Assembly: GCA_016866975.1 (NCBI GenBank)
Contig: VGKP01000017.1
Coordinates: 1-15,722, forward strand
DNA length: 15,722 nt
Reading direction: 5' to 3'
Source of the DNA: Candidatus Pacearchaeota archaeon
GTDB taxonomy: Archaea; Nanobdellota; Nanobdellia; Pacearchaeales; GW2011-AR1
Under the pieces are notes generated by a model. It did not search any database, was not told the origin of the DNA, and saw nothing but the letters and a program-made list of their open reading frames with translations. Of this stretch, positions 1 to 12,183 are shown one piece after another; within the stretch, counting starts at the first letter, position 1, and each line of letters opens with the position of its first letter. The position numbers and the translations under genes were made by a program.

Positions 1-1434
1 CTTTATCGGATTCTCATAGCAAGGTCTTTTGGACCAGAAGAATATGGACTTTTTTCTCTTGCAACAATGGTGGTAATACTTTTTGTTTCTCTTGCATCCT
101 TAGGAATACCTGAAGGATTGGTAAGGTTTATCGCACTCTATCGGGGGAATAAGAATGTAAAAAAGATAGGAGCTCTTGTGAAGTCTGCCTTGGGATTTCT
201 TATCTTTACAAGTGTCGTTACCAGCATCGCACTAATCATGCTCACACCTTGGATTTCACTCAACTTATTCCACACAGATAAACTAATTCCCTATCTTTAT
301 CTCGCAGCTCTTGCAATCCCCTTCTATACGATTGCAAATGTGTATCTCTCTGTCCTGCGCGCTTTTGAAAAAATAGCTTCCTATTCATTCATTCTTAATT
401 TTATGCAAAATTTCACGAAAATTGCAGCCCTTGCTATCTTTGTCTTCTTCGGCATGAAAATAAATGCCATCATGTTCTCCTATGTTCTCGGGATTCTAGC
501 AATGTTTTTGGCAGCATTTGTGGCAGTAAAAGTGAAGCTCGCTCATAACCTAAAGGTTCAAAAAGGGGGGCGAGGGTTAAATCCTCTCAGAGAAATTTTC
601 TCTTACTCCTGGCCACTCTCTCTTTTAAGTGTCGCGTCTTTTATTCTTTACTGGGTTGACAGCTTTACCATAGGCTACTTTAGGAATCCTGTCGAAGTGG
701 GGCTCTACAATGTGGCTGTTCCTCTTGCCGCAATTGTCATGATTGTACCTGACTTGATTATTCAGCTCTTCTTTCCCTTAGTGACCAAGGAGTATTCGCG
801 GAAGAATTATTCACTCATTCAGGAACTCAGCAAGCAAGCCACAAAATGGGTGTTTCTAGTCAATGTCCCTCTAACGCTCATTATCCTCCTCTTTCCAGGA
901 GTCATCATTAATTTCTTTTTCGGCTCAACGTATCTTGCCGCAGAACAATCTTTGCAGCTGCTCACTCTTGGCTCTCTTTTCGGCTCTTTGAGCATTATTC
1001 CGGCACATCTCATCTCCATGATTGGAAAATCAAAGCTGATGCTCGGGAATACTTTGGCGATGCTGGCTCTCAATGTGGTTCTGAATATTCTCTTGGTGCC
1101 GCGATATGGGATGGCGGGAGCAGCATTTTCAACGATGGTCATCTTTATCTGCATCAGTATCATCTACGGGATTCAATGCAGGAAGTTTCTTGCATTCATT
1201 CCTGTGCGGAGAAAGATGATAGAAATCTTCTTTTTTTCTTTAATTCCACTTCTCATAGTCATAGGGTTAAAAAGTTTTCTTATTCTTACCCCTCTAGTCC
1301 TTATCGCGCTGGGGATCGTTTTTCTCCTCATCTATGCAGCAATCATCTGGATATTCAAATGCCTGGACCATCACGACATCTACATTATAAGGATTTTTCT
1401 TCAAAAGTTGAAAATTCCTGAAAAGCAACGCTAA
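1..1434 (+). CDS. Wzx/MATE-like oligosaccharide flippase (polysaccharide biosynthesis protein), 5'-truncated by the window edge
   Basis: Frame 1 is open from base 1 (LYRILIARSFGPEEYGLFSLATM...), giving the typical flippase N-terminal 'AR.(L/F)GPEEYG' motif, so the true start is outside the window. Many hydrophobic TM segments, 'VGLYNVA' and 'LNILLVPRYGMAGAA' flippase motifs. Stop TAA at 1432-1434. Confidence 0.9.
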   Translation, partial: LYRILIARSFGPEEYGLFSLATMVVILFVSLASLGIPEGLVRFIALYRGNKNVKKIGALVKSALGFLIFTSVVTSIALIMLTPWISLNLFHTDKLIPYLYLAALAIPFYTIANVYLSVLRAFEKIASYSFILNFMQNFTKIAALAIFVFFGMKINAIMFSYVLGILAMFLAAFVAVKVKLAHNLKVQKGGRGLNPLREIFSYSWPLSLLSVASFILYWVDSFTIGYFRNPVEVGLYNVAVPLAAIVMIVPDLIIQLFFPLVTKEYSRKNYSLIQELSKQATKWVFLVNVPLTLIILLFPGVIINFFFGSTYLAAEQSLQLLTLGSLFGSLSIIPAHLISMIGKSKLMLGNTLAMLALNVVLNILLVPRYGMAGAAFSTMVIFICISIIYGIQCRKFLAFIPVRRKMIEIFFFSLIPLLIVIGLKSFLILTPLVLIALGIVFLLIYAAIIWIFKCLDHHDIYIIRIFLQKLKIPEKQR

Positions 1435-1466: not shown

Positions 1467-1487
1467 CCTCTCCAGAATCTTATGCTT

Positions 1488-2081
1488 ATGAACGGATTAG
1501 TGAAAAAAGAAGATCTTATTTCCTTTGAAAAAGAAGTGGAGCAACTTTATATCGATAAGAAAATTCGATCCCCTGTGCACGCATCAGGAGGGAATGAGGA
1601 AGAGCTTGTTGCGATTTTCAAGAATATTCACCCTAAAGATTGGGTTTTTACAACGTATCGGAGCCATTATCATGCGCTGCTCAAGGGGATATCCCGGGAA
1701 TGGTTGCTCAAGGAAGTTCTTGAAAATCATAGCATCCATATTATGAGTAAGGAGCACAGGTTTGTGAGCTCATCTATCGTCGGAGGAACACTGCCCTCTG
1801 CGCTCGGCGTAGCATGGGCAATCAAAAGAAAAGAGGAAAAGCGGCACGTCTGGGTATTCTGTGGGGATATGGCTTCAGAGAGCGGGGTTTTTCATGAATG
1901 TGCCAAATATGCCCGGCGCAACAATCTCCCGATGACGTTTGTTGTCGAGGATAACGGCTGGAGTGTTGATACTCCAACGCAGAAAGTCTGGGGCGGTCAG
2001 GATTCAGGCCCCAACGTATTGAGGTATACTTATGAAAGGACGTATCCCCATTATGGATTCGGAGTCTGGGTGATGTTCTGA
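1488..2081 (+). CDS. Minimal TPP-dependent dehydrogenase E1 alpha-like subunit (PDH/2-oxoacid dehydrogenase family)
   Basis: Motifs 'SPVHASGGNE', 'TYRSHYHALLKG', 'SSIVGG', and TPP/Mg motif 'GDMASESG...VVEDN' (GDG-X24-27-N variant). About 197 aa. Start 1488 preferred from TATA spacing; 1482 is the alternative. Confidence 0.85.
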   Translation: MNGLVKKEDLISFEKEVEQLYIDKKIRSPVHASGGNEEELVAIFKNIHPKDWVFTTYRSHYHALLKGISREWLLKEVLENHSIHIMSKEHRFVSSSIVGGTLPSALGVAWAIKRKEEKRHVWVFCGDMASESGVFHECAKYARRNNLPMTFVVEDNGWSVDTPTQKVWGGQDSGPNVLRYTYERTYPHYGFGVWVMF

Positions 2082-2653
2082 TGGGCGATTATTTTGATGA
2101 ACTCAAGAAATCCATGCAATTTCTCGCGCAGGACATACGGGTTATTTTCGTGGGCCAAACCGTCGGATACAAAGGGACTGCTTTCTTTAAAACACTTGAA
2201 GGCATTTCAGAAACGCAACGCCTTGAGCTTCCTGTCTTTGAGGACGTGCAGATGGGGATGACCATTGGATTAAGCTTCGAAGGCTACATTCCTGTTTCTT
2301 TTTTCCCTCGCATGGACTTCATGGTATTAGGATTCAATCAGTTGGTCAATCATCTCGACAAGATGGAAGAGATGTCGTCAGGACAGTTTAAGCCCAAGAT
2401 TATCATTCGTACAGCCATCGGGAGTGTAAAGCCTCTATTTCCCGGGCCGCAGCATTGTCAAGATCATGTTGACGCGCTGAAGCTGATGCTGAAGAATGTT
2501 GATGTGATCAAGCTTACACGAAAAGAAGATGTGTTCCCTGCCTATCAAAAGGCTCTCACGAGCGAGAAGTCGACAATTATTGTGGAGCTTCCCGATCTTT
2601 ATCATGCAGATTCTTCAGAGGAATTTTCTGGGATTCCAGGATCAAAACCATGA
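2081..2653 (+). CDS. TPP-dependent E1 beta-like subunit, pyrimidine-binding domain only
   Basis: Motifs 'ELPVFEDVQMGMTIGLSFEG' (cofactor-activating Glu), 'DF...FNQLVN', 'GPQH'. 190 aa with no C-terminal domain. TGATG stop/start overlap with the alpha gene. Confidence 0.85.
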   Translation: MGDYFDELKKSMQFLAQDIRVIFVGQTVGYKGTAFFKTLEGISETQRLELPVFEDVQMGMTIGLSFEGYIPVSFFPRMDFMVLGFNQLVNHLDKMEEMSSGQFKPKIIIRTAIGSVKPLFPGPQHCQDHVDALKLMLKNVDVIKLTRKEDVFPAYQKALTSEKSTIIVELPDLYHADSSEEFSGIPGSKP

Positions 2654-3777
2654 GAGTTGAATTTGGTGACTTGCGCCTCGATGAAGCAGCAAAAGAGAAT
2701 CTGCTGGACTGTATAGCAAAAAACTGGATCTCGGGAGGGCCCAAAGTAAAGCAATTCGAGGAGGAATGGGGAAATCTCTTCGGGTACAAGCACAATTTTG
2801 CAGTATATTCTGGAACTGGGGGCGACATCGGAGCCTGTATGGCACTTTACGATCTCGGCGCGCAGCGCGGAGATGAAATTATCGCGCCAGCGCTCGCTTT
2901 TGCCGCCGTCGGAGAGGCAATTCTGCAGGCAGGGTTTAAGCCTGTATTTGTAGATGTGGAAAAGGAGACGCTAAATATCGATCCAAAGATCATTGAGCAG
3001 AAAATTACTCCACGTACGCGCGCAATTCTTGTTGCGCATACCATGGGAAAGCCGTGCGAGATGGATTCCATCATGGAAATAGCAAGGAAACACAACCTCA
3101 TCGTGATAGAGGATTCCTGCGAGGCTCATGGGGCAAAGTACAAGGGAAAATTTATCGGGAATTGGGGCGACATGGCTGTCTTTAGCTTCTATATCGCACA
3201 CCTCATCTGTTGCGGCGAGGGAGGGATGATTTCAACGAATAACGAACGCATTGCGCAGATTCTCTCCTCAGTGCGTTCCCACGGAAGAAAAGGAGGTCAG
3301 CTCTATTTTGATCATGAGAGACTCGGCTCCAACTTAAAGATGAATGACATGGAGGCCGCAGTTGGCCTATCAGAAGTTAAGAAGTTTTGGTGGACGTTCG
3401 ATACAAGAAAGAAGAACCTTATTTATTTGCTGTATAAGATGAAGGACTTGCAGAAATATGCCTATTTCAATCTAGAGGGCTCAAACGATGTAGTATGTGC
3501 ACATGGATTTACTGTGACTATGAAAGATCCAAAATATAACTGCGCAGCACTCTATAGGTTCTTGGAAGACAACTCTATAAAGTGTAAGAGAAATTTCGGA
3601 AGTATGCCTACTCAACATAAGGCATTTGCTTTCCTAGGCCATAAGCTCGGAGAATTTCCGGAATCAGAGTATATTGGAGATCACGGATTGCATTTCGGAG
3701 TGCATCAATTCTTGTCATTAGACGATCTGGATTACATCTCTGAAAAGATGCATGAATATTTTAAGAGATTTGAGTAA
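2650..3777 (+). CDS. DegT/DnrJ/EryC1/StrS-fold PLP/PMP enzyme, His-type: probable NDP-4-keto-6-deoxysugar C3-dehydratase (ColD-like)
   Basis: Family motifs 'WISGGPKVKQFE', 'IEDSCEAHGA', 'GEGGM'. The active-site segment SFYIAHLICCGEGG has His where aminotransferases have Lys (SFxxxKxxxxGEGG). ATGA overlap with the E1 beta stop. Confidence 0.85.
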   Translation: MRVEFGDLRLDEAAKENLLDCIAKNWISGGPKVKQFEEEWGNLFGYKHNFAVYSGTGGDIGACMALYDLGAQRGDEIIAPALAFAAVGEAILQAGFKPVFVDVEKETLNIDPKIIEQKITPRTRAILVAHTMGKPCEMDSIMEIARKHNLIVIEDSCEAHGAKYKGKFIGNWGDMAVFSFYIAHLICCGEGGMISTNNERIAQILSSVRSHGRKGGQLYFDHERLGSNLKMNDMEAAVGLSEVKKFWWTFDTRKKNLIYLLYKMKDLQKYAYFNLEGSNDVVCAHGFTVTMKDPKYNCAALYRFLEDNSIKCKRNFGSMPTQHKAFAFLGHKLGEFPESEYIGDHGLHFGVHQFLSLDDLDYISEKMHEYFKRFE

Positions 3778-3779
3778 GG

Positions 3780-5927
3780 TTAGGTCTTATGCCTATTTTG
3801 CCAGATTTGAGTTCCTCCCAATTCAAAATGGAACGGCATTATCTCGGCGCCAGCTTGCTCAAGGACATGTACAAGAGCATTTCTCCTCTTTAATGCCGTA
3901 AAGAAGAGCAGATAGCCTCCATTCCCCGCACCGAGAAGCCTGCCTCCTTCGGCACCGTTGCCCATGCCAAGTTCATAAAGCATGTTCACTCGCGCGGTAG
4001 ACGCGAGAGGAGATATTTTCTTTTTAGTCTCCCAGGATTCATGGAGTGTTTTTCCAAAGAGGTCAAGCCTATGCGTCAACAGAAAGTCTTTCGCTTCAAT
4101 GGCTATCTTTTTCATCTTTTGCAGGAGAGCTACGGTGTCATCAGTATTACTCTTAAAATTCTCTTCTTGCCTCGAATGCACATCACTAGATACATGAGAT
4201 GTGCCTACATAACACAAAACAAGGCGATGGTTAAGTTCTTGGATTACTTCTTCTTTCAGGCGGAGGGGATAAATGATGTTCTTTTCCTCATTAAACTCGA
4301 TAAAATTAAAGCCGCCAGTGACCGCAGCATACTGATCTTGCCATCCTCCCTTGATTTTGAGTTCTTCAAAGTGCGCTTTGTAGGCAAGTTCGGCAATTTT
4401 ATACGAGTCGTAGCTTGTTTCTTGCAGATGGTTGAGGAGACTGATAACGAGAACAGCAAGGCTCGCGCTGGATCCCAAGCCTCTCCCTGGAGGGATATCA
4501 TTATGAAGGTAAATCTCAAATCCGAAATCAGGTTTCATGACCTTGATTGCCGCCTTAACCATGTCAAGAGTACCATCGTATAAGAGTGCTTCAGCAGACC
4601 GTGCAACTATATCTCTACCTCGAGTAAGATCGGAATCGATAATAATCTTCTTATCGGCTCGCTTAACGATAGTAGCATGGCAATATTTGTCAATGGTTGC
4701 ATTGATGACTGCCCCTCCATATGTTCCAAAAAAATACGGGAGATCCGTGCCGCCACCGCCAAAGCTTATTCTCAAGGGAGATTTTCCACTGATAATAGGG
4801 AATGTCTCTCTTTTTAAGAGTTCAGTGCCGAAGACAATGTCCTTGATAATGCCCTTCTCATCAACAATCGGGAGATGCCTGATGCCCACCGACATGATAG
4901 AGGTGCGTTTTTCCTCGCTGTCCGTATGCTGAGCAGTGATAGGATTCACCACCATGGCGTGCGCAACCTGATCTGCGATATTTCCACCGCGTAAAATAAA
5001 TTCTTTGATGATTCGATCATTGATAATACCTTTGAGTTTTTTTTCAGAATCAGTGACGAGGAGGATATTGATGCCGCTCTTGCTGATTTTCTGCATCGCT
5101 TCACGTACAATAGCATGTTCTTGCAGAATCAAAGTATTTAATACATCCTCTTTGAATTTTTCATGGGTTTCAGGCCTGCCGATATCCATAAAATAACCGT
5201 CTTCAAGGTATCCAAACAAGTTTCTTTCGCGTGCAAGGATAGGGAAGATTTCCTTTTCAAGAGAGATTTTTGAGCCAGATGCAATGTACTGGAAGATGCG
5301 AGAATCAAGAACATAAATCCCTCTGTTGACAATGCCTGTTCCTACGCCTTCTTTTTCGCTGAATTGAGAAATTATATTGCCTTCAAGAACAACATTGCCG
5401 TAGTGGAGCGATTCTGAAGTTTTGAAGAGGCTGATAGTGAATTGATGCTCATGGCTTGAATGGAAGTTCAGAAGTTTTCTGATGTTGATATGAGAATAAG
5501 AATCGCCATTGAGGACAAGGAAAGGCCCGCCCCCAAGATATTTTTCCGCATTCTTGATAGCTCCTCCGGTTCCAAGAGGAGTTTCCTCTTCAGAATAAGT
5601 GATGTCAGTATTCCATCTCCTGCCATCACCAAAATAGGATTTTATCTTGTCTGAGAGATGATGGACTGCAAGGACGATTTCAGTAACACCCTGGTCACGC
5701 AGGAAACGGATTTGGTGTTCAAGGAAGGGTTTGCCCGCAAACAAAGCCATGGGCTTGGGAATTTCATCTCCTAGGACAGGCTTTAGGCGCGTACCGAATC
5801 CACCTGCAAGAATAAGTGCTTTTACAGGGTAGGGGAGGTCTTTCTTGGCTTCAATGACTTCTTCTTCCCCGAGGGAACGATACACGTCGTGCGCAGAAGT
5901 AATGGAGGTATTCATAGGATTAGGCAT
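3780..5927 (-). CDS. Triple fusion: sugar-1-phosphate nucleotidyltransferase (HddC/GDP-mannose pyrophosphorylase-like) + CBS pair + GHMP sugar kinase (HddA, heptose-7-phosphate kinase-like)
   Basis: N-terminal 'ALILAGGFGTRL...PKPM', 'EETPLGTGGA', 'NGD', 'MDIGRPE'. Central CBS pair ('GINILLVTD...LKGII', 'GIRHLPIVDEKG'). C-terminal 'PLRISFGGGGTD', 'PPGRGLGSSAS', 'GGWQDQYAA', 'GGRLLGAGNGG'. Start at 5927 (overlaps upstream stop) or 5915; 5960 is unlikely. Confidence 0.9.
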   Translation of the reverse strand: MPNPMNTSITSAHDVYRSLGEEEVIEAKKDLPYPVKALILAGGFGTRLKPVLGDEIPKPMALFAGKPFLEHQIRFLRDQGVTEIVLAVHHLSDKIKSYFGDGRRWNTDITYSEEETPLGTGGAIKNAEKYLGGGPFLVLNGDSYSHINIRKLLNFHSSHEHQFTISLFKTSESLHYGNVVLEGNIISQFSEKEGVGTGIVNRGIYVLDSRIFQYIASGSKISLEKEIFPILARERNLFGYLEDGYFMDIGRPETHEKFKEDVLNTLILQEHAIVREAMQKISKSGINILLVTDSEKKLKGIINDRIIKEFILRGGNIADQVAHAMVVNPITAQHTDSEEKRTSIMSVGIRHLPIVDEKGIIKDIVFGTELLKRETFPIISGKSPLRISFGGGGTDLPYFFGTYGGAVINATIDKYCHATIVKRADKKIIIDSDLTRGRDIVARSAEALLYDGTLDMVKAAIKVMKPDFGFEIYLHNDIPPGRGLGSSASLAVLVISLLNHLQETSYDSYKIAELAYKAHFEELKIKGGWQDQYAAVTGGFNFIEFNEEKNIIYPLRLKEEVIQELNHRLVLCYVGTSHVSSDVHSRQEENFKSNTDDTVALLQKMKKIAIEAKDFLLTHRLDLFGKTLHESWETKKKISPLASTARVNMLYELGMGNGAEGGRLLGAGNGGYLLFFTALKRRNALVHVLEQAGAEIMPFHFELGGTQIWQNRHKT

Positions 5928-6870
5928 TTTTGTAGGGGTCGTCCTTGAGAAGCAAGGCATACCCTCGCATCAATTCCTGAATGCCGTCTTCAAGCGAAAC
6001 AGCTGGCAGAAATCCGGTTGCCATAATCTTCTTGTTAGAAACAATGTAATTTCTTTTGTCAGGATCTTCTCCGATTTTCATGGGAATCATTGCAAATTTA
6101 GGAACGTATTTTTTGATGGTCTCTGCAAGTTCCATTTTAGAGAGATTGGCATCTTCGAGGCCAACATTATAAATCTGATTTTTCATACTGTCAAAGTTCA
6201 CAATGCAATGCTCAAAACACCGCGCAACATCCCGTATGTGGATGTAATTTCTTTTAAAATGCGCCTCATAAATCACAACATAGCCGTCGCGCAAGGCTTT
6301 CAGGACAAAATCATTGACAAGCAAATCAGTGCGCATACGTGGAGAGATACCGAAAACCGTTGCAAGCCTAAGGGTAATCACATCCTTTCCCGATTTTGCG
6401 GCAGCAAGCAGATAGCGCTCTGCATCAGATTTTGTTCGTCCATACAATGAAATGGGTTCAAGAGGAGTTTCTTCCGTACAGAAGACATCGCCTGTCTTTG
6501 TCCCGTAGCCGCTGTTGGTCGTGGGATATATGAGCTTTTGCCTCGAAGTGCGAAGCTCATTGATGAGCACAATTGCCTCATAATTAATAGAAACCGCATC
6601 AAGTGGCTTTGCATCGCAGGCAGGCATGCCAACAATTGCGGCAAGCGGGATGATGACATCAAATTCAGGGAGAATTTCCACAAGTAGCTCTTTATTTCTC
6701 GCATCCCCATAGATAAAATTGAAACGAGGATTGCTCGCATAATGAAGAAGAGACCGTTGCTTATAGCTGAGATTGTCAAGGCACGTTACATTAAATCCTT
6801 TTTCTAGGAGATATCCGGCAAGGAAGCTTCCAAGATATCCTGCACCTCCCGTAATCAGCACTTTTTGCAT
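5920..6870 (-). CDS. Extended SDR, Cj1427-like GDP-heptose (NDP-sugar) C4-dehydrogenase
   Basis: 'KVLITGGAGYLGS', 'IIPLAAIVG', 'IYPTTNSGYG', YxxxK 'LYGRTK', 'RLATVFGISPRMRTDLLVNDF', 'HFKRNYIHIRDV', 'IGEDPDKRNYIVSN'. These closely match Campylobacter jejuni Cj1427c as I recall it (not aligned computationally). Start moved to MQKVL at 6870. Confidence 0.8.
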   Translation of the reverse strand: MQKVLITGGAGYLGSFLAGYLLEKGFNVTCLDNLSYKQRSLLHYASNPRFNFIYGDARNKELLVEILPEFDVIIPLAAIVGMPACDAKPLDAVSINYEAIVLINELRTSRQKLIYPTTNSGYGTKTGDVFCTEETPLEPISLYGRTKSDAERYLLAAAKSGKDVITLRLATVFGISPRMRTDLLVNDFVLKALRDGYVVIYEAHFKRNYIHIRDVARCFEHCIVNFDSMKNQIYNVGLEDANLSKMELAETIKKYVPKFAMIPMKIGEDPDKRNYIVSNKKIMATGFLPAVSLEDGIQELMRGYALLLKDDPYKNA

Positions 6871-6891
6871 TACACCATCTGCAAAGAGGGT

Positions 6892-6899
6892 TTTATAAA
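6892..6899 (-). promoter_or_regulatory. Archaeal-type TATA box TTTATAAA for the Cj1427-like/fusion operon
   Basis: Minus-strand TTTATAAA (6899..6892); last base 22 nt before the ATG at 6870. Confidence 0.7.
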
Positions 6900-6902
6900 G
6901 AA

Positions 6903-6967
6903 AGTGGTGGCGGAGTGATGAAGATATAATGGTGGGCTGAAGTAATTTCTCAACGAAAGCCACCACT
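6903..6967. other. Intergenic stem-loop closed by a 9-bp inverted repeat, containing GTGATGA and CTGA on the + strand
   Basis: AGTGGTGGC (6903-6911) is the reverse complement of GCCACCACT (6959-6967). Box-C-like GTGATGA at 6915-6921 and box-D-like CTGA at 6937-6940. Confidence 0.4.
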
Positions 6968-7039
6968 ACGCCAAAGAAGTACGTCCCCGACGACCCTCGT
7001 AGAACATAAAACATCATAATTGAAAATTCTCGAGTGTGC

Positions 7040-7091: not shown

Positions 7092-8171
7092 TTAAAACCC
7101 ATCGGAAGTCAGCATATACCTCAAGAAAGGGTCTGCTTCAGAATATTTTTTTTCAGGTATATTGGGCACATCATAATCTGCCTCGATAATGACGGGCAGA
7201 TTAGAGTTTTGAGCATGGGTTGCTATAGTTTTAAATTGTTCTCTTGAGACAATTCCTTCAGGGCCAACACCCACACTACCCCATTTCTTTATGAGTGGCC
7301 CATCAAGATAGATCCCCATACCTGTTGCATTGCCGATATGATAAGCTCTTCCCAATGGGGTATAACTCTCCAGAGAAGGGTGTCTTTTAAAATAATCCGG
7401 CCAGGTCTTAATTCGTTCCATCTCAAAGAGCATTCTCTCATCTTCTCCTGCATCGTTTTTACCCATAAAATTAGCACATTGCGAACCTGCCCAATGAGCA
7501 GTATCTAAGATAAGATTTCCTTTAGAAAGAGAAGTTAATGATCCAATATCATTAAAAGGATGGACAAAAATGTAAGGTGTCTTATCTTGCAATTTAGGAT
7601 GGGGTACAAGATGAGCTGTAACTCCATGCTCAATAGCAACGCCAATACCCTTTTAGCGGGCAAGACTTTCTAACGCAGAGAAGCGGGAGGCACATCGGTC
7701 ATAGAGCGCATCTCTCTGAGAATTAAATTGATCAGGAGTCAATATAACGGGGCTTTTCATTCTAAGTGCATTTCTTGAGACAAACAGGCCCACATTAACA
7801 CTCACCGTAACAGGGTATTGCGAAGAGTCCTCTGAACGAAGAGCCGCGACCTGATTGATCACAAGATCTATGAGATCCTTCCCATATTCAGTGTCTTGCT
7901 CTGCGCTAAACGCAAGGCAATGCCTGGATTGAAAGGTGGATTGCGCATGAACAATAGGAAGGCGATATTTCGCCTGGTTAACTTTTTGTTTTTCTAAATT
8001 TTCTTCTCTCATTGCAGGAGGTATAAAAAAGAGAAAAGCTCCCACTTGGAGCGGTCGTCCTATGGATTCGCCATATTTTTCAATGAGTTCTTTTGCTTCA
8101 AGAAATGCCTGAATTTCAGATTCCTTGTGCAACATGACGGGAAGGCCAACTGTAAGTTTTTTATCGCTCAT
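7092..8171 (-). pseudogene. Xylose-isomerase-like/AP-endonuclease-2 TIM-barrel protein (sugar isomerase/epimerase family) interrupted by one in-frame TAA at 7655-7653
   Basis: ORFs 7653..8171 and 7092..7592 are in the same frame. The 20 codons between them are open: ...LESLAR*KGIGVAIEHGVTAHLVPHPK-LQDK.... The joined protein (about 359 aa) has the metal-ligand pattern 'GVAIEH', 'LILDTAH', 'YHIGN', 'PVIIE'. Confidence 0.7.
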
Positions 8172-8420: not shown

Positions 8421-10145
8421 TTACAAGACGTTCTTCTTATACCACTCCATCGTTCTGCGAATACCTTCATCAAGCGATATCGAAGGCTGCCAGCCAAGTT
8501 CTTGCTTTGCCTTGTTGCAATTCAAAGCAAGTGTTGTTTTAATTGTCGGCTTAGAAGTATCGTATGCAATGGCAAGTTGCCCTCCTGCGGCATCCACGAT
8601 TTTTTTGACAAGCTCACGGATAGAGACAGAGGAGCCGTATCCTATATTATATAGGCCGAATTGGGACTGTTGCTTCTCCAGTGCAAGAATCACAGCGTCA
8701 ACAAGGTCAGAGACATACAACAAATCCCTCTCTTCTTCTCCTGTTCCCCAGACAATAATCTTCCCATCTTTCGGTTGCAGTACTTTCGTCATGGTTGCTC
8801 CAAAGACATGGGACTTCTCAAGGTCAAATTTGTCATGGGGCCCGTAGATGTTAGAATGCCTGAGCACAGTGTATCGTGTCTCTCCAATGCGCGAATAGAA
8901 TTCACACATCTTTTCAATATAGACTTTGGTCCAGCCGACTCCAAAATAGCTCTTAAACAGTTCTTTGTTAGCATCAAAATCACTCTCTAGCACAGGCCGC
9001 TCAGAAGGCTGATACATGACGCTGCAGCTGAAAAAAACAACTTGCTTAACTTTGCAGTCATGGGCTGCTCTGAAGATTAGCGAATTCATAATCGCATTGT
9101 CCGTGACATGAAAATACGGGCGCGTGACAATATCCTTTGCCCCTGAAGTCGTGGCAGCCGCCTGAATGATGACATCCATGCCAGATACAACACATCTTAC
9201 TTCTTCTTCGTTGCACAAATCAGCTTTCTTCAACTGCAATCCAGGCAATGAAAAGGGCTGGCTGTGATGATACGTACCATAAAGTTCAAGATTCTCCTTT
9301 CCCGCAAGCCGTTCAGCAATATTTCTCCCAATAAATCCTGAGACACCACAAATAAGCACTTTCGTTTTCTGGGGAGATAATTTCTGCTGCTTAAATTCAA
9401 GAATCACTTCCTTAGAGGATTTATTCATAAAAGGAAACATGTTCAGAAGTTTGGCGTGGGCAATGTTCCCAGTAGCATAACGGTACTGACCGAATGTTAC
9501 ATTTTTCCCGAGAAGTTCTGCAACTTCTTTGAGAGCGATATTTCTTGTGGCAACTACATTATACACGCCCACTATATTCTGGCTGAGTGCCTGCGTGACA
9601 ATCTTGAGAAGGTCAGAGTGAAGCACATAGTTAAACTCTGCATCAGGCGAGAGTGTCAATGTAGGGAATGTATCTTCAATGATTTTGAGCAGGCTGTTTT
9701 TTCTCGAATATGGCCCGAGAAGGGCGGAGCAGCGCAGGATAAGTGCCTGAGGTGATAGTTTTCGGACAAGAGCTTCAGAAAGGAATTTTGTCAGAGGATA
9801 GATGCAGGCAAGTGCATCAGCAGAAATATTTTCCGCTTCGTCGTGGATTTTGCCATCAGTAGGATACACATCAATCGTAGAAATAAAGATGAATTTTTCA
9901 TGCGGAATTTCCAAAAGGTGCTGGGTAAGAAGAAGATTATCCTGCACATATGCCGCGACTTCTTCGGAAGAAGAGGGCTTTTTTGAATTAAATGCGCAAT
10001 GGATAATCGTGGCAACACCTCTTTCTCTGAGCTGCTGCCATTCTGCATCAGAAGTTTCACGCGATATACCTATAACATTGAGCTTCTCTGCAAGATAACG
10101 CCCTAATCCACTCTTGCTTCCTGTGACAATGATTTTTCCTTCCAT
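8421..10145 (-). CDS. Tandem fusion of two NAD(P)-dependent epimerase/dehydratase (SDR) domains; C-terminal domain GDP-fucose-synthase-like
   Basis: Two Rossmann motifs: 'IIVTGSKSGLG' (with YxxxK 'YPLTK') and 'KVLICGVSGFIG' at about 9360 (with 'RHSNIYGPHDKFD', 'SHV', 'VWGTGEEERDLLYVSD'). TAATG overlap with the upstream gene. Confidence 0.85.
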   Translation of the reverse strand: MEGKIIVTGSKSGLGRYLAEKLNVIGISRETSDAEWQQLRERGVATIIHCAFNSKKPSSSEEVAAYVQDNLLLTQHLLEIPHEKFIFISTIDVYPTDGKIHDEAENISADALACIYPLTKFLSEALVRKLSPQALILRCSALLGPYSRKNSLLKIIEDTFPTLTLSPDAEFNYVLHSDLLKIVTQALSQNIVGVYNVVATRNIALKEVAELLGKNVTFGQYRYATGNIAHAKLLNMFPFMNKSSKEVILEFKQQKLSPQKTKVLICGVSGFIGRNIAERLAGKENLELYGTYHHSQPFSLPGLQLKKADLCNEEEVRCVVSGMDVIIQAAATTSGAKDIVTRPYFHVTDNAIMNSLIFRAAHDCKVKQVVFFSCSVMYQPSERPVLESDFDANKELFKSYFGVGWTKVYIEKMCEFYSRIGETRYTVLRHSNIYGPHDKFDLEKSHVFGATMTKVLQPKDGKIIVWGTGEEERDLLYVSDLVDAVILALEKQQSQFGLYNIGYGSSVSIRELVKKIVDAAGGQLAIAYDTSKPTIKTTLALNCNKAKQELGWQPSISLDEGIRRTMEWYKKNVL

Positions 10146-11137
10146 TAGACAAATTTTTTTTCCGTGAACACATTGTATCTCTTTCCTACAATCTCTTTAT
10201 TCTCCTTATACCACTGCATGACTTCCTTGATGCCCTCCTCTAAGGAGACTGTAGGCTCCCACCCCAGAGCCTTTGCTTTGCTGATATCCATGACCCTCTT
10301 CCTGTCTCCTGAAGGCTTTGACGTGTCCCACACAATCTTTGGTTTCTGTTCAAGGTTGTTAACGATAATATCAACAATCTGCTTGACTGTATATCCCTGC
10401 CCACTGCCAAAATTAATCGGCGAGGGATGGCATTTTTCAAGTGCAAACAGCATACCTCGCGCAACATCTTTTGCATGAATAAAGTCGCGTACCGGGGTTC
10501 CATCACCCCATACAACCAAAGGGTCTTCACCGCTCATCGCTCTCGCGATAAGGGATGGGATGACCATTGCGTTTGCAGGGTCAAAGTTGTCATACGGTCC
10601 GTAGGTATTGGCAGGCCTCACGACAGCCAGATTCATCGAGCCATATTCTTTGCGGTAGGCTTCCACCTGAAGCTCACCCATACGTTTCGCCCAACCTGCA
10701 AATTTGTCATTTTCAGAGGGAAATGTTTTCCAAACATCATCTTCGTGGAATACTTCTGCAGGAGCATAAACTCCAATCGTGCTCGTATAGAGGATACGTT
10801 CAGCTCCTGATTGGCGTGCTGCTTCGAGCATGTTAGTGTTAAACAGAATCGTGGGAACAAAAAAGCTCGCAGGTTTCTCAGCAGTCATTTTCGGAGAGCC
10901 TTTGATGCCTGCAAGATGAAAAACAATATCCATGCCTTTGCAGGCAAGCAAGCAATTGTTGATGTCCATAAGGTTGACTTTCATGAATTCTGCTTGTGGA
11001 TGTGCGCGCGAAGGGTCATCGAGAGAGGCGATGCGGACGCTCGCGCCTTGCTCAATAAGAAGCTGGACAAGTTGCCTTCCAATCATCCCCGTTCCCCCCG
11101 TAACAAGTATTTTCTTGCCTTGATAAAAGTTCATCAT
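10145..11137 (-). CDS. GDP-L-fucose-synthase-like extended SDR (NDP-sugar epimerase/reductase)
   Basis: 'KILVTGGTGMIG', 'VFHLAG', 'RPANTYGPYDNFD', 'VWGDGTPVRDFIHAKD', 'WDTSKPSG'. Start MMNF at 11137 (ATGA overlap with upstream TGA; GAGGT SD-like sequence upstream). Confidence 0.85.
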   Translation of the reverse strand: MMNFYQGKKILVTGGTGMIGRQLVQLLIEQGASVRIASLDDPSRAHPQAEFMKVNLMDINNCLLACKGMDIVFHLAGIKGSPKMTAEKPASFFVPTILFNTNMLEAARQSGAERILYTSTIGVYAPAEVFHEDDVWKTFPSENDKFAGWAKRMGELQVEAYRKEYGSMNLAVVRPANTYGPYDNFDPANAMVIPSLIARAMSGEDPLVVWGDGTPVRDFIHAKDVARGMLFALEKCHPSPINFGSGQGYTVKQIVDIIVNNLEQKPKIVWDTSKPSGDRKRVMDISKAKALGWEPTVSLEEGIKEVMQWYKENKEIVGKRYNVFTEKKFV

Positions 11138-12114
11138 GAGTGTACCTCTCTCGCAACGGCTAGCCTGCAATGATCAAGAAGGTATTTAATACTTTCTTCA
11201 AAAGAATACTTTGGCTTCCATCCTGTTTCTCTTTCAAATTTGGAAGTATCTGGTATCTGCAGAGTCACATCCACAGGTCGCAATAGCGTAAGTTCGACTC
11301 TCGAAGGGATAGTGCATTGTGCAAGTTTCTTCAAAACATCAAGGAATTGCCCGACCGTGATGACAGTATTGCCCCCAATATTATAGATTTCTCCAGGTCT
11401 TCCTTTCGTCATGGCAATCCAGTAGGATTCCATAGCATCACGGACATCAATGAGTGTCCGCGTGGAGTCGAGATTGCCATGGAGCAATTCTTTTTGCAGA
11501 CCAGCTTCAATGCGCGCAACCTGCATTGCAAAGGACGTTGCAAAGAGATCGGTTCTTCGCGGATTGAGGTACGCAAACATACGAGTGCGGATAACGGGAA
11601 TGCCATAACTCTTGAAATAAGTGAGTCCCAGGGAATCCTGTGCCATCTTTGACACTGCATAAGGATTGACAGGCTGTACGGGACAGTCTTCAGTGATAGG
11701 CACGTGCCGAGGGTCAACTTGCCCATACAGTTCAGAAGTGCTGCAGATTTGAACGAGAGGTTTGGTGCCTGAAAGGCGTATAGCTTCAAAAAGATTTGCA
11801 GTGCCCATAATATTATTATGCAAGACAGAAAGCGGATTAACAAAAGATGCGCGGACATTGGCGTGGGAAGCAATATGAAAAATAGCATCAGGTTGAACTT
11901 TGCGAATGACTTCAAAAACAGCAGAGAAGTCAGTAAGGTCGCATTCATGGAGATTTATTTTATCTTTAATCAAAGAGATATTCTGGTGCGTGGATGTGCT
12001 ATGCCAACGTGTGATTCCATGGATATCTACATCCGGATGGTTCTGTGCAATATATTCTGCAAGATAACTTCCGCCGGATCCGGTAACGCCAGTAATCAGT
12101 GCCTTTTTTATCAT
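11134..12114 (-). CDS. GDP-sugar 4,6-dehydratase (Gmd/DmhA/Rmd family; resembles GDP-heptose 4,6-dehydratase DmhA)
   Basis: 'ALITGVTGSGGSYLA', catalytic 'STSELYG' (Thr/Glu) and 'PYAVSK'. Segments 'G..RW', 'PRRTDLF', 'QVARIEAG', 'GNLDSTRTLIDVRDA', 'LRPVD' resemble DmhA as recalled. Start MIKKA at 12114. Confidence 0.8.
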   Translation of the reverse strand: MIKKALITGVTGSGGSYLAEYIAQNHPDVDIHGITRWHSTSTHQNISLIKDKINLHECDLTDFSAVFEVIRKVQPDAIFHIASHANVRASFVNPLSVLHNNIMGTANLFEAIRLSGTKPLVQICSTSELYGQVDPRHVPITEDCPVQPVNPYAVSKMAQDSLGLTYFKSYGIPVIRTRMFAYLNPRRTDLFATSFAMQVARIEAGLQKELLHGNLDSTRTLIDVRDAMESYWIAMTKGRPGEIYNIGGNTVITVGQFLDVLKKLAQCTIPSRVELTLLRPVDVTLQIPDTSKFERETGWKPKYSFEESIKYLLDHCRLAVAREVHS

Positions 12115-12142
12115 CTTAATAATAGTAGAAATACACAACCGC

Positions 12143-12159
12143 AATCCTTTTTAAGGATT
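12143..12159. promoter_or_regulatory. Palindromic element in the 69-bp divergent intergenic region containing back-to-back TATA-like boxes
   Basis: AATCCTT-TTT-AAGGATT inverted repeat. It reads TTTTTAAG on + and CTTAAAAA on - (both 12148-12155), between divergent starts at 12114 and 12184. Confidence 0.5.
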
Positions 12160-12183
12160 ATTGTAGTAGTACCTGAGAGGCAT

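What the first reader, a model, noticed from the sequence alone, without database searches (positions are those of the whole stretch)
1488..2653. Stripped-down E1 alpha/beta pair with no E2/E3, inside a glycan locus
Alpha is about 197 aa (typical E1 alpha is over 300 aa) and has GDM in place of GDG. Beta is 190 aa, pyrimidine-binding domain only, lacking the C-terminal domain that contacts E2 in PDH complexes. Catalytic Glu (PVFE) and His (GPQH) are retained. The pair is translationally coupled to the C3-dehydratase and no lipoyl/E2/E3 gene is in the window. PDH-like pairs that acetylate keto-sugars are known in actinomycete antibiotic clusters (e.g. AviB1/AviB2 of avilamycin). Inference: this is a minimal carboligase acting on a nucleotide keto-sugar, not a central-metabolism PDH.
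Basis: partly seen in the sequence, partly recalled or inferred. Interest (0 to 1): 0.75.

Follow-up and report, generated by a model that had tools for sequence, protein, structure and literature searches.

The report
Minimal thiamine enzyme pair for sugar branching
Two small overlapping genes encode a cut-down, two-subunit thiamine enzyme related to the first component of pyruvate dehydrogenase. It belongs to a large uncharacterised family found in surface-sugar gene clusters of tiny archaea, many bacteria and viral contigs, and most likely adds a short carbon branch to an activated keto-sugar rather than burning pyruvate.

Summary
Window 1482-2081 encodes a 199-aa E1-alpha-like ThDP-binding (PP) domain with GDM-X26-DN. 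Window 2081-2653 encodes a 190-aa E1-beta-like pyrimidine-binding domain with no C-terminal domain. The genes overlap each other and the next gene, a His-type (ColD/RfbH-like) sugar 3-dehydratase.

This is not a local truncation. It is a conserved family with alpha about 190-210 aa, beta about 179 aa and GDM invariant. I found 518 or more loci in species-representative genomes (DPANN, CPR, SAR11, Nitrospira, Verrucomicrobia and others) and 463 viral contigs.

In a limited tree the family is a 100/100 clade on a long stem. It lies apart from PDH E1 alphas that have E2 neighbours. Its sister group is full-length non-PDH pairs.

The own genome (89% complete) has no E2 or lipoyl domain.

The constant neighbour is a 4-keto-forming SDR, either close to PDB 6vo6 (which I recall as Cj1427) or GMD-like: 88 of 97 well-flanked loci. 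HddA/HddC-like activation genes and His-type 3-dehydratases are frequent. Natural fusions exist: dehydratase-alpha-beta, SDR-alpha and radical-SAM-alpha.

Best reading (confidence about 0.6, inferred, no assay): a ThDP carboligase that puts a two-carbon branch on C4 of a GDP-4-keto-(3-deoxy)heptose or hexose.

I rate it a new variant of a known kind (alphaKADH2 sugar-branching pairs). The scan has noted this family before on other DNA.

The parts
1482..2081 (+). Short E1-alpha-like subunit (PP / ThDP-diphosphate-binding domain), 199 aa, with an alternative ATG at 1488. Motifs: GDM at 1863-1871, EDN at 1947-1955, C-terminal Y-x-R-x-x-P-H with H190 at 2049-2051.
   Evidence: Pfam E1_dh 7-171/300, E 2.6e-23. 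PDB E1 alpha matches. AF2 model has pLDDT 81 and its best folds are human PDH/BCKDH E1 alpha, TMq 0.63-0.76. Family conservation is shown.
2081..2653 (+). Short E1-beta-like subunit (Pyr domain only), 190 aa. Catalytic Glu E54 is at 2240-2242 and H125 at 2453-2455. There is no C-terminal (Transketolase_C / E2-binding) domain.
   Evidence: NCBIfam PDH E1 beta 8e-11. PDB 1ik6 and 1um9_B. Alignment to full-length betas. Family median length is 179 aa. The Pyr domain of a fused homolog superposes on E1 beta at rmsd 2.1 A over 175 residues.
2650..3777 (+). DegT-family enzyme with His (H184, 3199-3201) at the Schiff-base Lys position. It is a ColD/RfbH-type nucleotide-sugar 3-dehydratase, translationally coupled to beta.
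   Evidence: Pfam DegT 2.4e-92 and NCBIfam RfbH best hit. The His column is conserved in about 49 of 52 DegT genes of related loci. It is 66% identical to the DegT part of the natural DegT-alpha-beta fusion P0144.
3780..5960 (-). Nucleotidyltransferase-CBS-GHMP kinase fusion (HddC-like plus HddA-like). It is the presumed sugar activation step.
   Evidence: Kinase/NTase homologs lie within 10 kb of alpha in 33 of 40 well-flanked genome loci.
5920..7017 (-). SDR closely related to PDB 6vo6/6vo8, which I recall as Cj1427, the GDP-heptose C4-dehydrogenase. It is the presumed 4-keto-forming step.
   Evidence: phmmer E 5e-105 to 6vo6. About 50% identical homologs occur in 47 of 80 genome loci.
11134..12144 (-). 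GDP-mannose 4,6-dehydratase-like SDR, an alternative 4-keto-6-deoxy-forming step.
   Evidence: Pfam GDP_Man_Dehyd 2.8e-69. Either this SDR or the 6vo6-like SDR accompanies alpha in 35 of 40 genome loci and 53 of 57 viral loci.
8421..11170 (-). Three further SDR domains: a di-SDR at 8421-10145 and a GDP-fucose-synthase-like SDR at 10145-11170. They are candidate epimerase/reductases for the ring or branch ketone.
67..1434 (+). Wzx/MurJ-type polysaccharide flippase directly upstream of alpha. It marks the locus as a surface-glycan locus.
   Evidence: Pfam Polysacc_synt 2.2e-18.

Best explanation
Alpha and beta form a minimal E1-type (transketolase-superfamily) ThDP enzyme, presumably an alpha2beta2 tetramer. 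It is built only from a PP domain (alpha) and a Pyr domain (beta).

Proposed mechanism:
- ThDP/Mg2+ is held by D129 and N158 of the GDM-X26-DN motif and is activated by beta-Glu54.
- The enzyme decarboxylates a 2-oxo acid, most likely pyruvate, to the hydroxyethylidene-ThDP enamine.
- It does not pass the two-carbon unit to a lipoyl-E2. It adds it to the C4 carbonyl of a nucleotide-activated keto-sugar made by its neighbours.

Proposed pathway in this locus:
- An HddA/HddC-like kinase/nucleotidyltransferase activates the sugar, probably as a GDP-heptose or GDP-hexose.
- A 6vo6-like (Cj1427-like by recall) C4-dehydrogenase or a GMD-like 4,6-dehydratase makes the 4-ketone.
- The His-type dehydratase removes the 3-OH.
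- Alpha/beta then gives a 4-C-acetyl tertiary alcohol.
- The SDRs reduce it, and the glycosyltransferase and flippase put it on the cell surface.

Shown here: domain identity, intact cofactor and catalytic residues, family conservation, absence of E2/lipoyl, gene context and gene fusions. Inferred: oligomer state, donor, acceptor, position of the branch and the product.
For: - Domain and fold identity.
- All residues at least 95% conserved in the family are present in the window's copies. Only four conservative deviations occur in alpha and two in beta.
- The family is large and consistently short: 772 hits, of which the best 120 listed are 188-230 aa; 103 clusters at E<=1e-30; at least 518 genome loci.
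- Beta immediately follows alpha in 39 of 39 well-flanked genome loci. A 4-keto-forming SDR is present in 35 of 40 genome loci and 53 of 57 viral loci.
- The adjacent DegT is His-type in nearly all loci.
- Natural fusions: DegT-alpha-beta (P0144), SDR-alpha (P0122), B12-radical-SAM-alpha (P0124, P0127), radical-SAM-alpha-beta (P0152), and about 40 alpha-beta fusions.
- No E2 or lipoyl domain in the own genome.
- Five bacteria carrying the short pair also keep a separate full-length housekeeping E1.
- Tree: the short clade has 100/100 support and is sister (95/93) to full-length non-PDH pairs, one of them next to a DegT gene, and lies away from PDH E1 alphas that have E2 neighbours.
- Literature: E1-type (alphaKADH2) pairs add C2 branches from pyruvate to keto-sugars (PMC4425429, PMC12247030). 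Cj1427 or the 4,6-dehydratase together with a PLP 3-dehydratase make GDP-3-deoxy-4-keto- and GDP-3,6-dideoxy-4-keto-heptose in vitro (PMC10680097). YerE adds C2 to exactly such a 3,6-dideoxy-4-keto sugar (PMC12247030).
Against: - No activity, cofactor binding or product has been measured for any member I could find.
- No C-branched heptose is known from these organisms.
- The characterised sugar-branching pairs are full-length (Pau11 325 aa, Pau12 345 aa). It is untested whether an E1 lacking about 40% of alpha and the whole beta C-domain assembles and works.
- The alpha C-terminal 40 residues, which include the putative catalytic His190, are modelled with low confidence.
- The own genome shows no GmhA-type isomerase, so the heptose origin of the substrate is uncertain here.
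- In viral contigs the 3-dehydratase is mostly absent (11 of 57), so 3-deoxygenation is not obligatory.
- Context and fusions show functional linkage, not the reaction type.
Confidence: 0.6

Rival explanations
1. The chemistry class is the same (ThDP carboligation onto a nucleotide keto-sugar) but the donor or position differs. Examples are a hydroxyacetyl/glycolaldehyde unit from hydroxypyruvate or a ketose (transketolase-like, as proposed for the miharamycin split TK), a longer 2-oxo acid (ErwE-like), or a branch at C3 instead of C4.
For: The fused model matches DXS and transketolase as well as E1. alphaKADH2 enzymes branch at C3 or C4, and YerE-like enzymes use varied donors (PMC12247030). 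Radical-SAM fusions hint at further elaboration of the branch.
Against: By sequence and fold the alpha is nearest to pyruvate/branched-chain E1 alphas, not TK. According to the review, known alphaKADH2 sugar-branching enzymes appear specialised for C2 from pyruvate (PMC12247030). No gene for making a special 2-oxo acid donor is in the window.
Confidence: 0.17
2. The pair acts on the sugar in the reverse sense. It would be a ThDP-dependent C-C lyase or decarboxylase, such as acyloin cleavage (as in acetoin-cleaving E1) or decarboxylation of a keto-uronic/ulosonic intermediate. That would shorten or rearrange the sugar instead of branching it.
For: Acetoin:DCPIP oxidoreductase belongs to the same alphaKADH2 superfamily and cleaves an acyloin (PMC12247030). 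The context evidence links the pair only to keto-sugars, not to a direction of reaction.
Against: A 4-keto pyranose has no side-chain acyloin that could be cleaved without opening the ring. No uronate-forming dehydrogenase is conserved in the cassette. The tight coupling to a 3-dehydratase mirrors the yersiniose branching logic.
Confidence: 0.08
3. It is a free-standing 2-oxo acid decarboxylase or oxidoreductase of central or fermentative metabolism (PDH, BCKDH or acetoin type) that merely sits in a glycan locus.
For: The best database names are PDH E1 alpha/beta, and sources label relatives 'pyruvate dehydrogenase E1 alpha'.
Against: Scores are far below the equivalog cut-offs (107 vs 394 bits; 41 vs 321 bits). 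No E2 or lipoyl domain is in the genome. The E2-binding beta C-domain is absent family-wide. Distribution among relatives is patchy, 3 of 101 genomes of the order. Glycan context is constant and fusions are to sugar enzymes. Housekeeping E1s coexist in bacteria that carry the pair.
Confidence: 0.03
4. It is a decaying remnant of a full-length E1 operon, that is, truncated pseudogenes.
For: Both subunits are much shorter than canonical ones.
Against: The same short lengths recur in hundreds of loci from many phyla with 40-80% identity and invariant catalytic residues. Translational coupling is intact. Compact, confident folds are predicted.
Confidence: 0.01

Closest known systems
alphaKADH2-type sugar-branching E1 alpha/beta pairs of actinomycete antibiotic pathways: AviB1/AviB2 (avilamycin), Pau11/Pau12 (paulomycin), aldgamycin pair, KbDH-alpha/beta (kibdelomycin)
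   Same: Both are two-subunit E1-type ThDP enzymes without E2/E3, encoded among deoxysugar genes. They are proposed (shown in vitro for KbDH-alpha/beta, according to PMC12247030) to transfer C2 from pyruvate to a sugar ketone, giving a tertiary alcohol (PMC4425429, PMC12247030). In my tree the short family is sister to full-length non-PDH pairs.
   Different: Known members are full-length (Pau11 325 aa, Pau12 345 aa, PMC4425429). Here alpha lacks a 9-residue loop, a block of about 40 residues after the ThDP motif and the whole C-terminal tail, and beta lacks the entire C-terminal domain. The motif is GDM...DN instead of GDG...NN. The stem branch is long (2.42). The setting is surface-glycan loci of archaea, CPR, SAR11, Nitrospira and viral contigs, with GDP-heptose-type partners, not secondary-metabolite clusters. 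I could not obtain sequences of characterised members by reference, so direct identity to them is untested.
YerE (Yersinia pseudotuberculosis yersiniose pathway) and YerE-like lyases (ErwE and others)
   Same: The pathway logic matches: nucleotidyltransferase, 4-keto formation, PLP/PMP 3-dehydratase, then ThDP-dependent addition of a carbon branch at C4 of a 3,6-dideoxy-4-keto sugar for a surface polysaccharide (PMC12247030, PMC4753412).
   Different: YerE is a single-chain flavoprotein of the decarboxylase (acetolactate-synthase-like) superfamily and uses a CDP-sugar. The pair here belongs to the transketolase/E1 superfamily, is split into two small subunits, and sits with GDP-type (HddC-like) activation genes.
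E1 component of 2-oxo acid dehydrogenase complexes (PDH, BCKDH, acetoin dehydrogenase), heterotetrameric alpha2beta2 type
   Same: The PP and Pyr domain folds match. The catalytic Glu and the equivalent of the beta His are present, and the Mg2+ ligand spacing is the same.
   Different: There is no E2-binding beta C-domain, no alpha C-terminal region, no E2 or lipoyl partner in the genome, and a separate clade in the tree.
Campylobacter jejuni GDP-heptose tailoring pathway (Cj1427 C4-dehydrogenase, DmhA 4,6-dehydratase, HS:5 C3-dehydratase, C4-reductases)
   Same: The neighbours of the pair are homologs of these enzymes. Their demonstrated products, GDP-3-deoxy-4-keto- and GDP-3,6-dideoxy-4-keto-heptose (PMC10680097), are the acceptors I propose.
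   Different: No ThDP enzyme takes part in the C. jejuni pathways described in that paper. There the 4-ketone is simply epimerised and reduced.

Membership tests
2-oxo acid dehydrogenase complex E1 (alpha2beta2 PDH/BCKDH/acetoin type) | ThDP-binding motif GDG-X(24-27)-NN in alpha, with Mg2+ ligands Asp and Asn | tested here: met
   The motif is GDM-X26-DN. The spacing is identical to human E1 alpha, and Asp129 and Asn158 are kept. The third and penultimate positions differ, invariantly so across the family.
2-oxo acid dehydrogenase complex E1 (alpha2beta2 PDH/BCKDH/acetoin type) | Catalytic Glu of the Pyr domain in beta | tested here: met
   E54 aligns with the Glu of PLSE/PLNE in 1um9_B and 1ik6. 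It is conserved in at least 95% of the family.
2-oxo acid dehydrogenase complex E1 (alpha2beta2 PDH/BCKDH/acetoin type) | Full-length alpha (about 320-400 aa) covering the whole E1_dh profile | tested here: not met
   Only profile positions 7-171 of 300 are matched. The protein is 199 aa and three deletions are mapped. NCBIfam score is 107 bits against a 394-bit cut-off.
2-oxo acid dehydrogenase complex E1 (alpha2beta2 PDH/BCKDH/acetoin type) | Beta C-terminal (Transketolase_C) domain that docks E2 | tested here: not met
   Beta ends after the Pyr domain. There is no PF02780 hit in the window in six frames. None of the beta relatives longer than 334 aa carries it.
2-oxo acid dehydrogenase complex E1 (alpha2beta2 PDH/BCKDH/acetoin type) | E2 (lipoyl acyltransferase) partner in the genome | tested here: not met
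   No PF00198 and no PF00364 hit in the own genome. The genome is 89% complete, so absence is not strictly proven.
2-oxo acid dehydrogenase complex E1 (alpha2beta2 PDH/BCKDH/acetoin type) | Phylogenetic grouping with E1 alphas that have E2 neighbours | tested here: not met
   The short family is a separate 100/100 clade with stem length 2.42. Sampling of full-length sequences was small (10).
alphaKADH2-type sugar-branching E1 pairs (AviB1/B2, Pau11/12, KbDH-alpha/beta) | E1-type alpha/beta ThDP pair without E2/E3, encoded among nucleotide-sugar tailoring genes | tested here: met
alphaKADH2-type sugar-branching E1 pairs (AviB1/B2, Pau11/12, KbDH-alpha/beta) | Full-length subunits (three-domain architecture PP / Pyr+TKC) | tested here: not met
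   Pau11 is 325 aa and Pau12 345 aa (PMC4425429), against 199 and 190 aa here. The TKC domain is absent.
alphaKADH2-type sugar-branching E1 pairs (AviB1/B2, Pau11/12, KbDH-alpha/beta) | Sequence clustering with characterised members | tested here: inconclusive
   Sequences of characterised members were not available by reference. The short clade is sister (95/93) to full-length non-PDH pairs from Azospirillum (DegT context) and Streptomyces griseofuscus.
alphaKADH2-type sugar-branching E1 pairs (AviB1/B2, Pau11/12, KbDH-alpha/beta) | Pyruvate-dependent C2 transfer to a ketone acceptor | not testable with these tools
   This needs an enzyme assay.
YerE-like ThDP lyases (decarboxylase superfamily) | Single chain with TPP_enzyme_N / M / C domains and FAD | tested here: not met
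   There is only a weak TPP_enzyme_C hit on the cofactor motif (3.6e-7). E1_dh is the best family and the folds are E1, TK and DXS.
Split transketolase | TK N-half plus a C-half carrying Pyr and Transketolase_C domains | tested here: not met
   The genome's true split TK lies on contig C9. In the tree its N-half is the most distant row from alpha, with a branch of 6.3.

The most novel reading that the evidence does not exclude
A previously undescribed, minimal two-domain (PP + Pyr, no TKC) branch of the E1/transketolase superfamily is the carbon-branching enzyme of a widespread, horizontally mobile GDP-heptose/hexose tailoring cassette. It would make C4-branched (3-deoxy) higher sugars, still unknown to glycochemistry, on the surfaces of DPANN archaea, CPR bacteria, SAR11, Nitrospira and Verrucomicrobia. 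It is also carried on hundreds of viral contigs, presumably to remodel host or virion glycans.
Probability: 0.5. Interest if true: 0.72.

Novelty: new variant of a known kind. Interest (0 to 1): 0.6.

Why it matters
It would matter for four reasons.

1. It would define the smallest working architecture of the transketolase/E1 superfamily. That would show the third (TKC) domain and about 40% of E1 alpha to be dispensable for ThDP catalysis.

2. A 2025 review assigns YerE-like enzymes mainly to cell-surface structures such as LPS, and E1-type (alphaKADH2) enzymes mainly to antibiotic pathways (PMC12247030). This family would put an E1-type brancher into surface glycans across many phyla and viral contigs. 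It would predict a class of C-branched heptose-derived sugars that nobody has isolated.

3. A 2 x 20 kDa ketone-accepting carboligase would be an attractive biocatalyst for making chiral tertiary alcohols.

4. For annotation, these genes are currently named 'pyruvate dehydrogenase E1 alpha' or 'hypothetical'. In genome-reduced organisms (DPANN, CPR, SAR11) that wrongly suggests pyruvate oxidation capacity in metabolic reconstructions.

Tried and rejected
Context was taken instead from the search for related loci plus my own ORF/BLAST scripts.
- Plasmid collection: only full-length E1 alphas at 35% identity or less, no short-family member. I used these as outgroups.
- Literature searches for a characterised short pair, or for a ThDP enzyme in GDP-heptose pathways, found nothing direct.
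- Krug et al. 2024 (Angew. Chem., doi 10.1002/anie.202403535), the bioinformatic survey of ketone-accepting ThDP enzymes, is not held. I cannot exclude that it lists short forms.
- Sequences of AviB1, Pau11 and KbDH were not available by reference, so they are not in the tree.
- An alpha2beta2 complex or a cofactor/ligand pocket could not be modelled because the tool is single-chain only. A natural alpha-beta fusion was folded instead, but its inter-domain arrangement does not superpose well on TK or DXS (rmsd 14-20 A), so I drew no pocket conclusions.
- The frameshift idea is rejected.
- The pseudogene idea is rejected (conservation).
- The central-metabolism PDH idea is rejected (no E2 or lipoyl domain, patchy distribution, coexisting housekeeping E1s).
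- The identity of PDB 6vo6/6vo8 as Cj1427 rests on my memory. The PDB title says only 'putative sugar-nucleotide epimerase/dehydratase'.
Full report
OBSERVATION

The window is contig C17 of a 0.8-Mb, 89%-complete genome. Its closest related loci come from Nanoarchaeota/Woesearchaeota MAGs.

Two ORFs sit at 1482-2081 and 2081-2653 on the + strand. The stop of the first overlaps the start of the second (TGATG). The stop of the second overlaps the start of a DegT-family gene at 2650 (ATGA).

The first ORF (199 aa, or 197 aa from the ATG at 1488) matches Pfam E1_dh only over profile positions 7-171 of 300 (E 2.6e-23). It scores 107 bits against NCBIfam PDH E1 alpha, where the cut-off is 394 bits. 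It also matches residues 49-212 of human PDH E1 alpha.

The second ORF (190 aa) matches the first ~175 residues of E1 beta subunits: 1ik6 at 1.6e-12, 1um9_B at 6e-11, and NCBIfam at 8e-11.

The cofactor motif reads G128-D129-M130, 26 residues, then E156-D157-N158. This is the spacing of GDG-X26-NN in human E1 alpha. In beta, E54 (PVFE) and H125 (GPQH) align with the catalytic Glu and the conserved His of E1 beta.

WHAT IS MISSING

Alignment with five full-length E1 alphas and three full-length betas maps the losses.
- Alpha lacks a 9-residue Gly-rich loop.
- Alpha lacks a block of about 40 residues between the ThDP motif and a C-terminal Y-x-R-x-x-P-H motif.
- Alpha lacks the whole C-terminal helical tail.
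- Beta lacks the entire C-terminal domain.

The alpha His190 aligns with the E1 alpha His that PDB titles associate with reductive acylation (1olx). That stretch is modelled with low confidence, so the equivalence is tentative.

A six-frame search for Transketolase_C finds only the genome's separate split transketolase on contig C9. No frameshift can restore a beta C-domain, because the next gene starts inside beta's stop codon.

AlphaFold2 models support the domain assignments. The window alpha (pLDDT 81) is most similar to human PDH and BCKDH E1 alpha (TMq 0.63-0.76). A natural alpha-beta fusion (pLDDT 87, pTM 0.89) matches DXS and transketolase over both domains and E1 beta over its Pyr domain (rmsd 2.1 A over 175 residues).

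NOT A ONE-OFF

A search of 5.8 billion proteins gave 772 hits. The best 120 listed are 188-230 aa long and 54-80% identical to the window alpha. GDM is invariant in the 16-member alignment.

A full HMMER pass over 1.84 billion cluster representatives gave 103 clusters at E<=1e-30.

In one genome per species, at least 518 loci encode a relative. They include:
- DPANN archaea;
- CPR/Patescibacteria;
- Pelagibacteraceae and SAR116;
- Nitrospira;
- Verrucomicrobiota;
- Burkholderiales;
- Chloroflexota, Cyanobacteria and Chlamydiota.

IMG/VR adds 463 viral contigs.

Across 79 alphas and 75 betas from these loci, lengths are 189-210 aa and a median of 179 aa respectively. The window's copies keep every residue conserved in at least 95% of the family.

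Within the window's own order, only 3 of 101 sampled genomes carry a true short alpha. The alpha tree also disagrees with taxonomy: an Elusimicrobia sequence sits inside the archaeal group, and a cyanobacterial one next to Nitrospira. Both are typical of horizontally mobile glycan genes.

NOT A PDH

The own genome has no E2 catalytic domain and no lipoyl domain.

Five bacteria that carry the short pair each also have a separate full-length E1. Those match the whole E1_dh profile at 155-305 bits, against 50-60 bits for the short alpha.

In a maximum-likelihood tree of 42 rows, the short alphas form a 100/100 clade on a stem of 2.42 substitutions per site. This includes those taken from fusions. 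The clade is sister (95/93) to two full-length non-PDH alphas: Azospirillum, next to a DegT gene, and Streptomyces griseofuscus, in an NRPS context. It is separate from E1 alphas with an adjacent E2 (Desulfotalea, Sulfitobacter) and from housekeeping copies.

Rows left out: 2-oxoglutarate-type E1s (L174, L175) and all characterised AviB1-type proteins. I could not obtain the latter by reference.

WHAT IT WORKS WITH

I searched the ORFs of 80 genome loci and 80 viral loci with the window's own proteins. Counts below are for loci with at least 5 kb on both sides of alpha.

| Neighbour within 10 kb of alpha | Genome loci (of 40) | Viral loci (of 57) |
|---|---|---|
| Beta | 39, all within 300 nt | 52, only 20 adjacent, often separated by SDR genes |
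| 4-keto-forming SDR (homolog of window 5920-7017 or a GMD-like dehydratase) | 35 | 53 |
| HddA/HddC-like kinase or nucleotidyltransferase | 33 | 3 |
| DegT gene | 26 | 11 |

The SDR at 5920-7017 matches PDB 6vo6/6vo8 at E 5e-105. [quoted passage not shown]

In about 49 of 52 cases the DegT gene has His in place of the Schiff-base Lys, as does the window's (H184). This marks a ColD/RfbH-type 3-dehydratase rather than an aminotransferase.

A typical bacterial cassette (Nitrospira, L059) reads as follows:
- glycosyltransferase;
- B12-radical-SAM enzyme;
- HddA-like kinase;
- GDP-fucose-synthase-like SDR;
- alpha and beta;
- His-type DegT;
- HddC-like guanylyltransferase;
- 6vo6-like SDR;
- ABC exporter.

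Gene fusions give independent linkage:
- about 40 alpha-beta fusions;
- a DegT-alpha-beta triple fusion (P0144), whose DegT part is 66% identical to the window's;
- an SDR-alpha fusion;
- two B12-radical-SAM-alpha fusions;
- a radical-SAM-alpha-beta fusion.

None of the long relatives of beta carries a Transketolase_C domain.

MECHANISM

Established knowledge supplies three points.
- E1-type (alphaKADH2) pairs take C2 from pyruvate and add it to sugar ketones in aldgamycin, paulomycin, avilamycin and kibdelomycin pathways (PMC4425429, PMC4753412, PMC12247030).
- YerE adds C2 to CDP-3,6-dideoxy-4-keto-glucose in yersiniose synthesis (PMC12247030).
- Cj1427 or the 4,6-dehydratase, combined with the HS:5 PLP 3-dehydratase, makes GDP-3-deoxy-4-keto-heptose and GDP-3,6-dideoxy-4-keto-heptose in vitro (PMC10680097).

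Putting these together with the context above gives my best reading. The neighbours activate a sugar as a GDP-type nucleotide sugar, oxidise C4 and remove the 3-OH. Alpha/beta then adds a hydroxyethyl-ThDP-derived acetyl group to C4. SDRs then reduce ring or branch ketones, and the glycosyltransferase and flippase deliver the sugar.

Steps shown here: domain identities, intact catalytic residues, conservation, context and fusions. Steps inferred: oligomer state, pyruvate as donor, C4 as the site, the nucleotide and the sugar.

Two cautions apply. The own genome has no GmhA-type (SIS_2) hit, so the sugar may not be a heptose here. In viral contigs the dehydratase is usually absent.

RIVALS

The rivals are another donor or site (0.17), a lyase/decarboxylase role on the sugar (0.08), a free central-metabolism enzyme (0.03) and a pseudogene (0.01). 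Reasons are given in the Rival explanations section.

COMPARISON WITH THE KNOWN, AND NOVELTY

The pair works like an alphaKADH2 sugar-branching enzyme placed in a yersiniose-like pathway. It fails the architectural features of that family and of PDH E1: full-length alpha and the beta TKC domain.

No curated NCBIfam or Pfam model reaches its cut-off. Sources call relatives 'thiamine pyrophosphate-dependent enzyme', 'pyruvate dehydrogenase E1 alpha' or 'hypothetical'. I found no paper on the short form. One relevant survey is not held.

I therefore rate it a new variant of a known kind, with interest 0.6.

The scan itself has met this family before on other DNA (e1-813214, e1-5918827, e1-5918837). 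Those notes gave me the term alphaKADH2 and the lead to viral contigs, both of which I checked myself.

Noticed in passing
L091-L170 (IMG/VR contigs), e.g. L097:1-16597: 463 viral contigs encode the short alpha. There alpha and beta are often separated by SDR/GMD-like genes, and kinase/nucleotidyltransferase genes are nearly absent. L097 (from a 287-kb contig) is a long one-strand sugar operon with two GT7-type glycosyltransferases fused to laminin-G domains, two or three radical SAM enzymes, an RmlC-type epimerase and a HAD phosphatase. I did not check whether these contigs are truly viral.
   Followed up: partly
L090:2629-7288 (Azospirillum ramasamyi plasmid NZ_CP029835.1): A full-length E1 alpha/beta pair (318 and 356 aa) lies next to a DegT aminotransferase, an NAD(P) oxidoreductase and a HAD-IIIA hydrolase. 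Azospirillum accounts for 20 of the plasmid hits. In the tree it is sister to the short family, so it may be a full-length glycan-type relative in Gram-negatives.
   Followed up: partly
P0335, P0336: These are beta-like Pyr domains fused to DUF5672 (PF18922), 436-457 aa, seen in several sources including Tara. The partner domain is uncharacterised.
   Followed up: no
P0124, P0127, P0152; L059:6164-7720: B12-binding radical SAM enzymes are fused to alpha or encoded in the same cassette. This suggests C-methylation or another radical modification of the branched sugar.
   Followed up: no
window 7092-8171 (-) and L007:7330-8189: The two Pfam-less ORFs (7653-8171 and 7092-7592) are in one frame in the window, interrupted by a stop. 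Their homologs in a Pacearchaeota locus (51% and 45% identity) are also two ORFs, but in different, overlapping frames. The split may therefore not be a recent lesion of this genome alone.
   Followed up: partly
own genome G000: There is no SIS_2/GmhA-type isomerase hit, and only weak HAD hits for a GmhB-type phosphatase, although the locus carries an HddC-CBS-HddA-like fusion. The source of the sugar phosphate for this kinase is unclear in this 0.8-Mb genome (89% complete).
   Followed up: partly
window 11818-13839 (+) versus 11134-12144 (-): The longest glycosyltransferase ORF overlaps the GMD-like gene on the opposite strand by about 330 nt. The true GT start is probably further downstream.
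   Followed up: no
tree: An Elusimicrobia alpha (L006) and a Methanosarcinales alpha (L021) nest within the DPANN group that holds the window. Saccharibacteria group with Verrucomicrobia, and a cyanobacterium with Nitrospira. This points to cross-domain and cross-phylum transfer of the cassette.
   Followed up: partly
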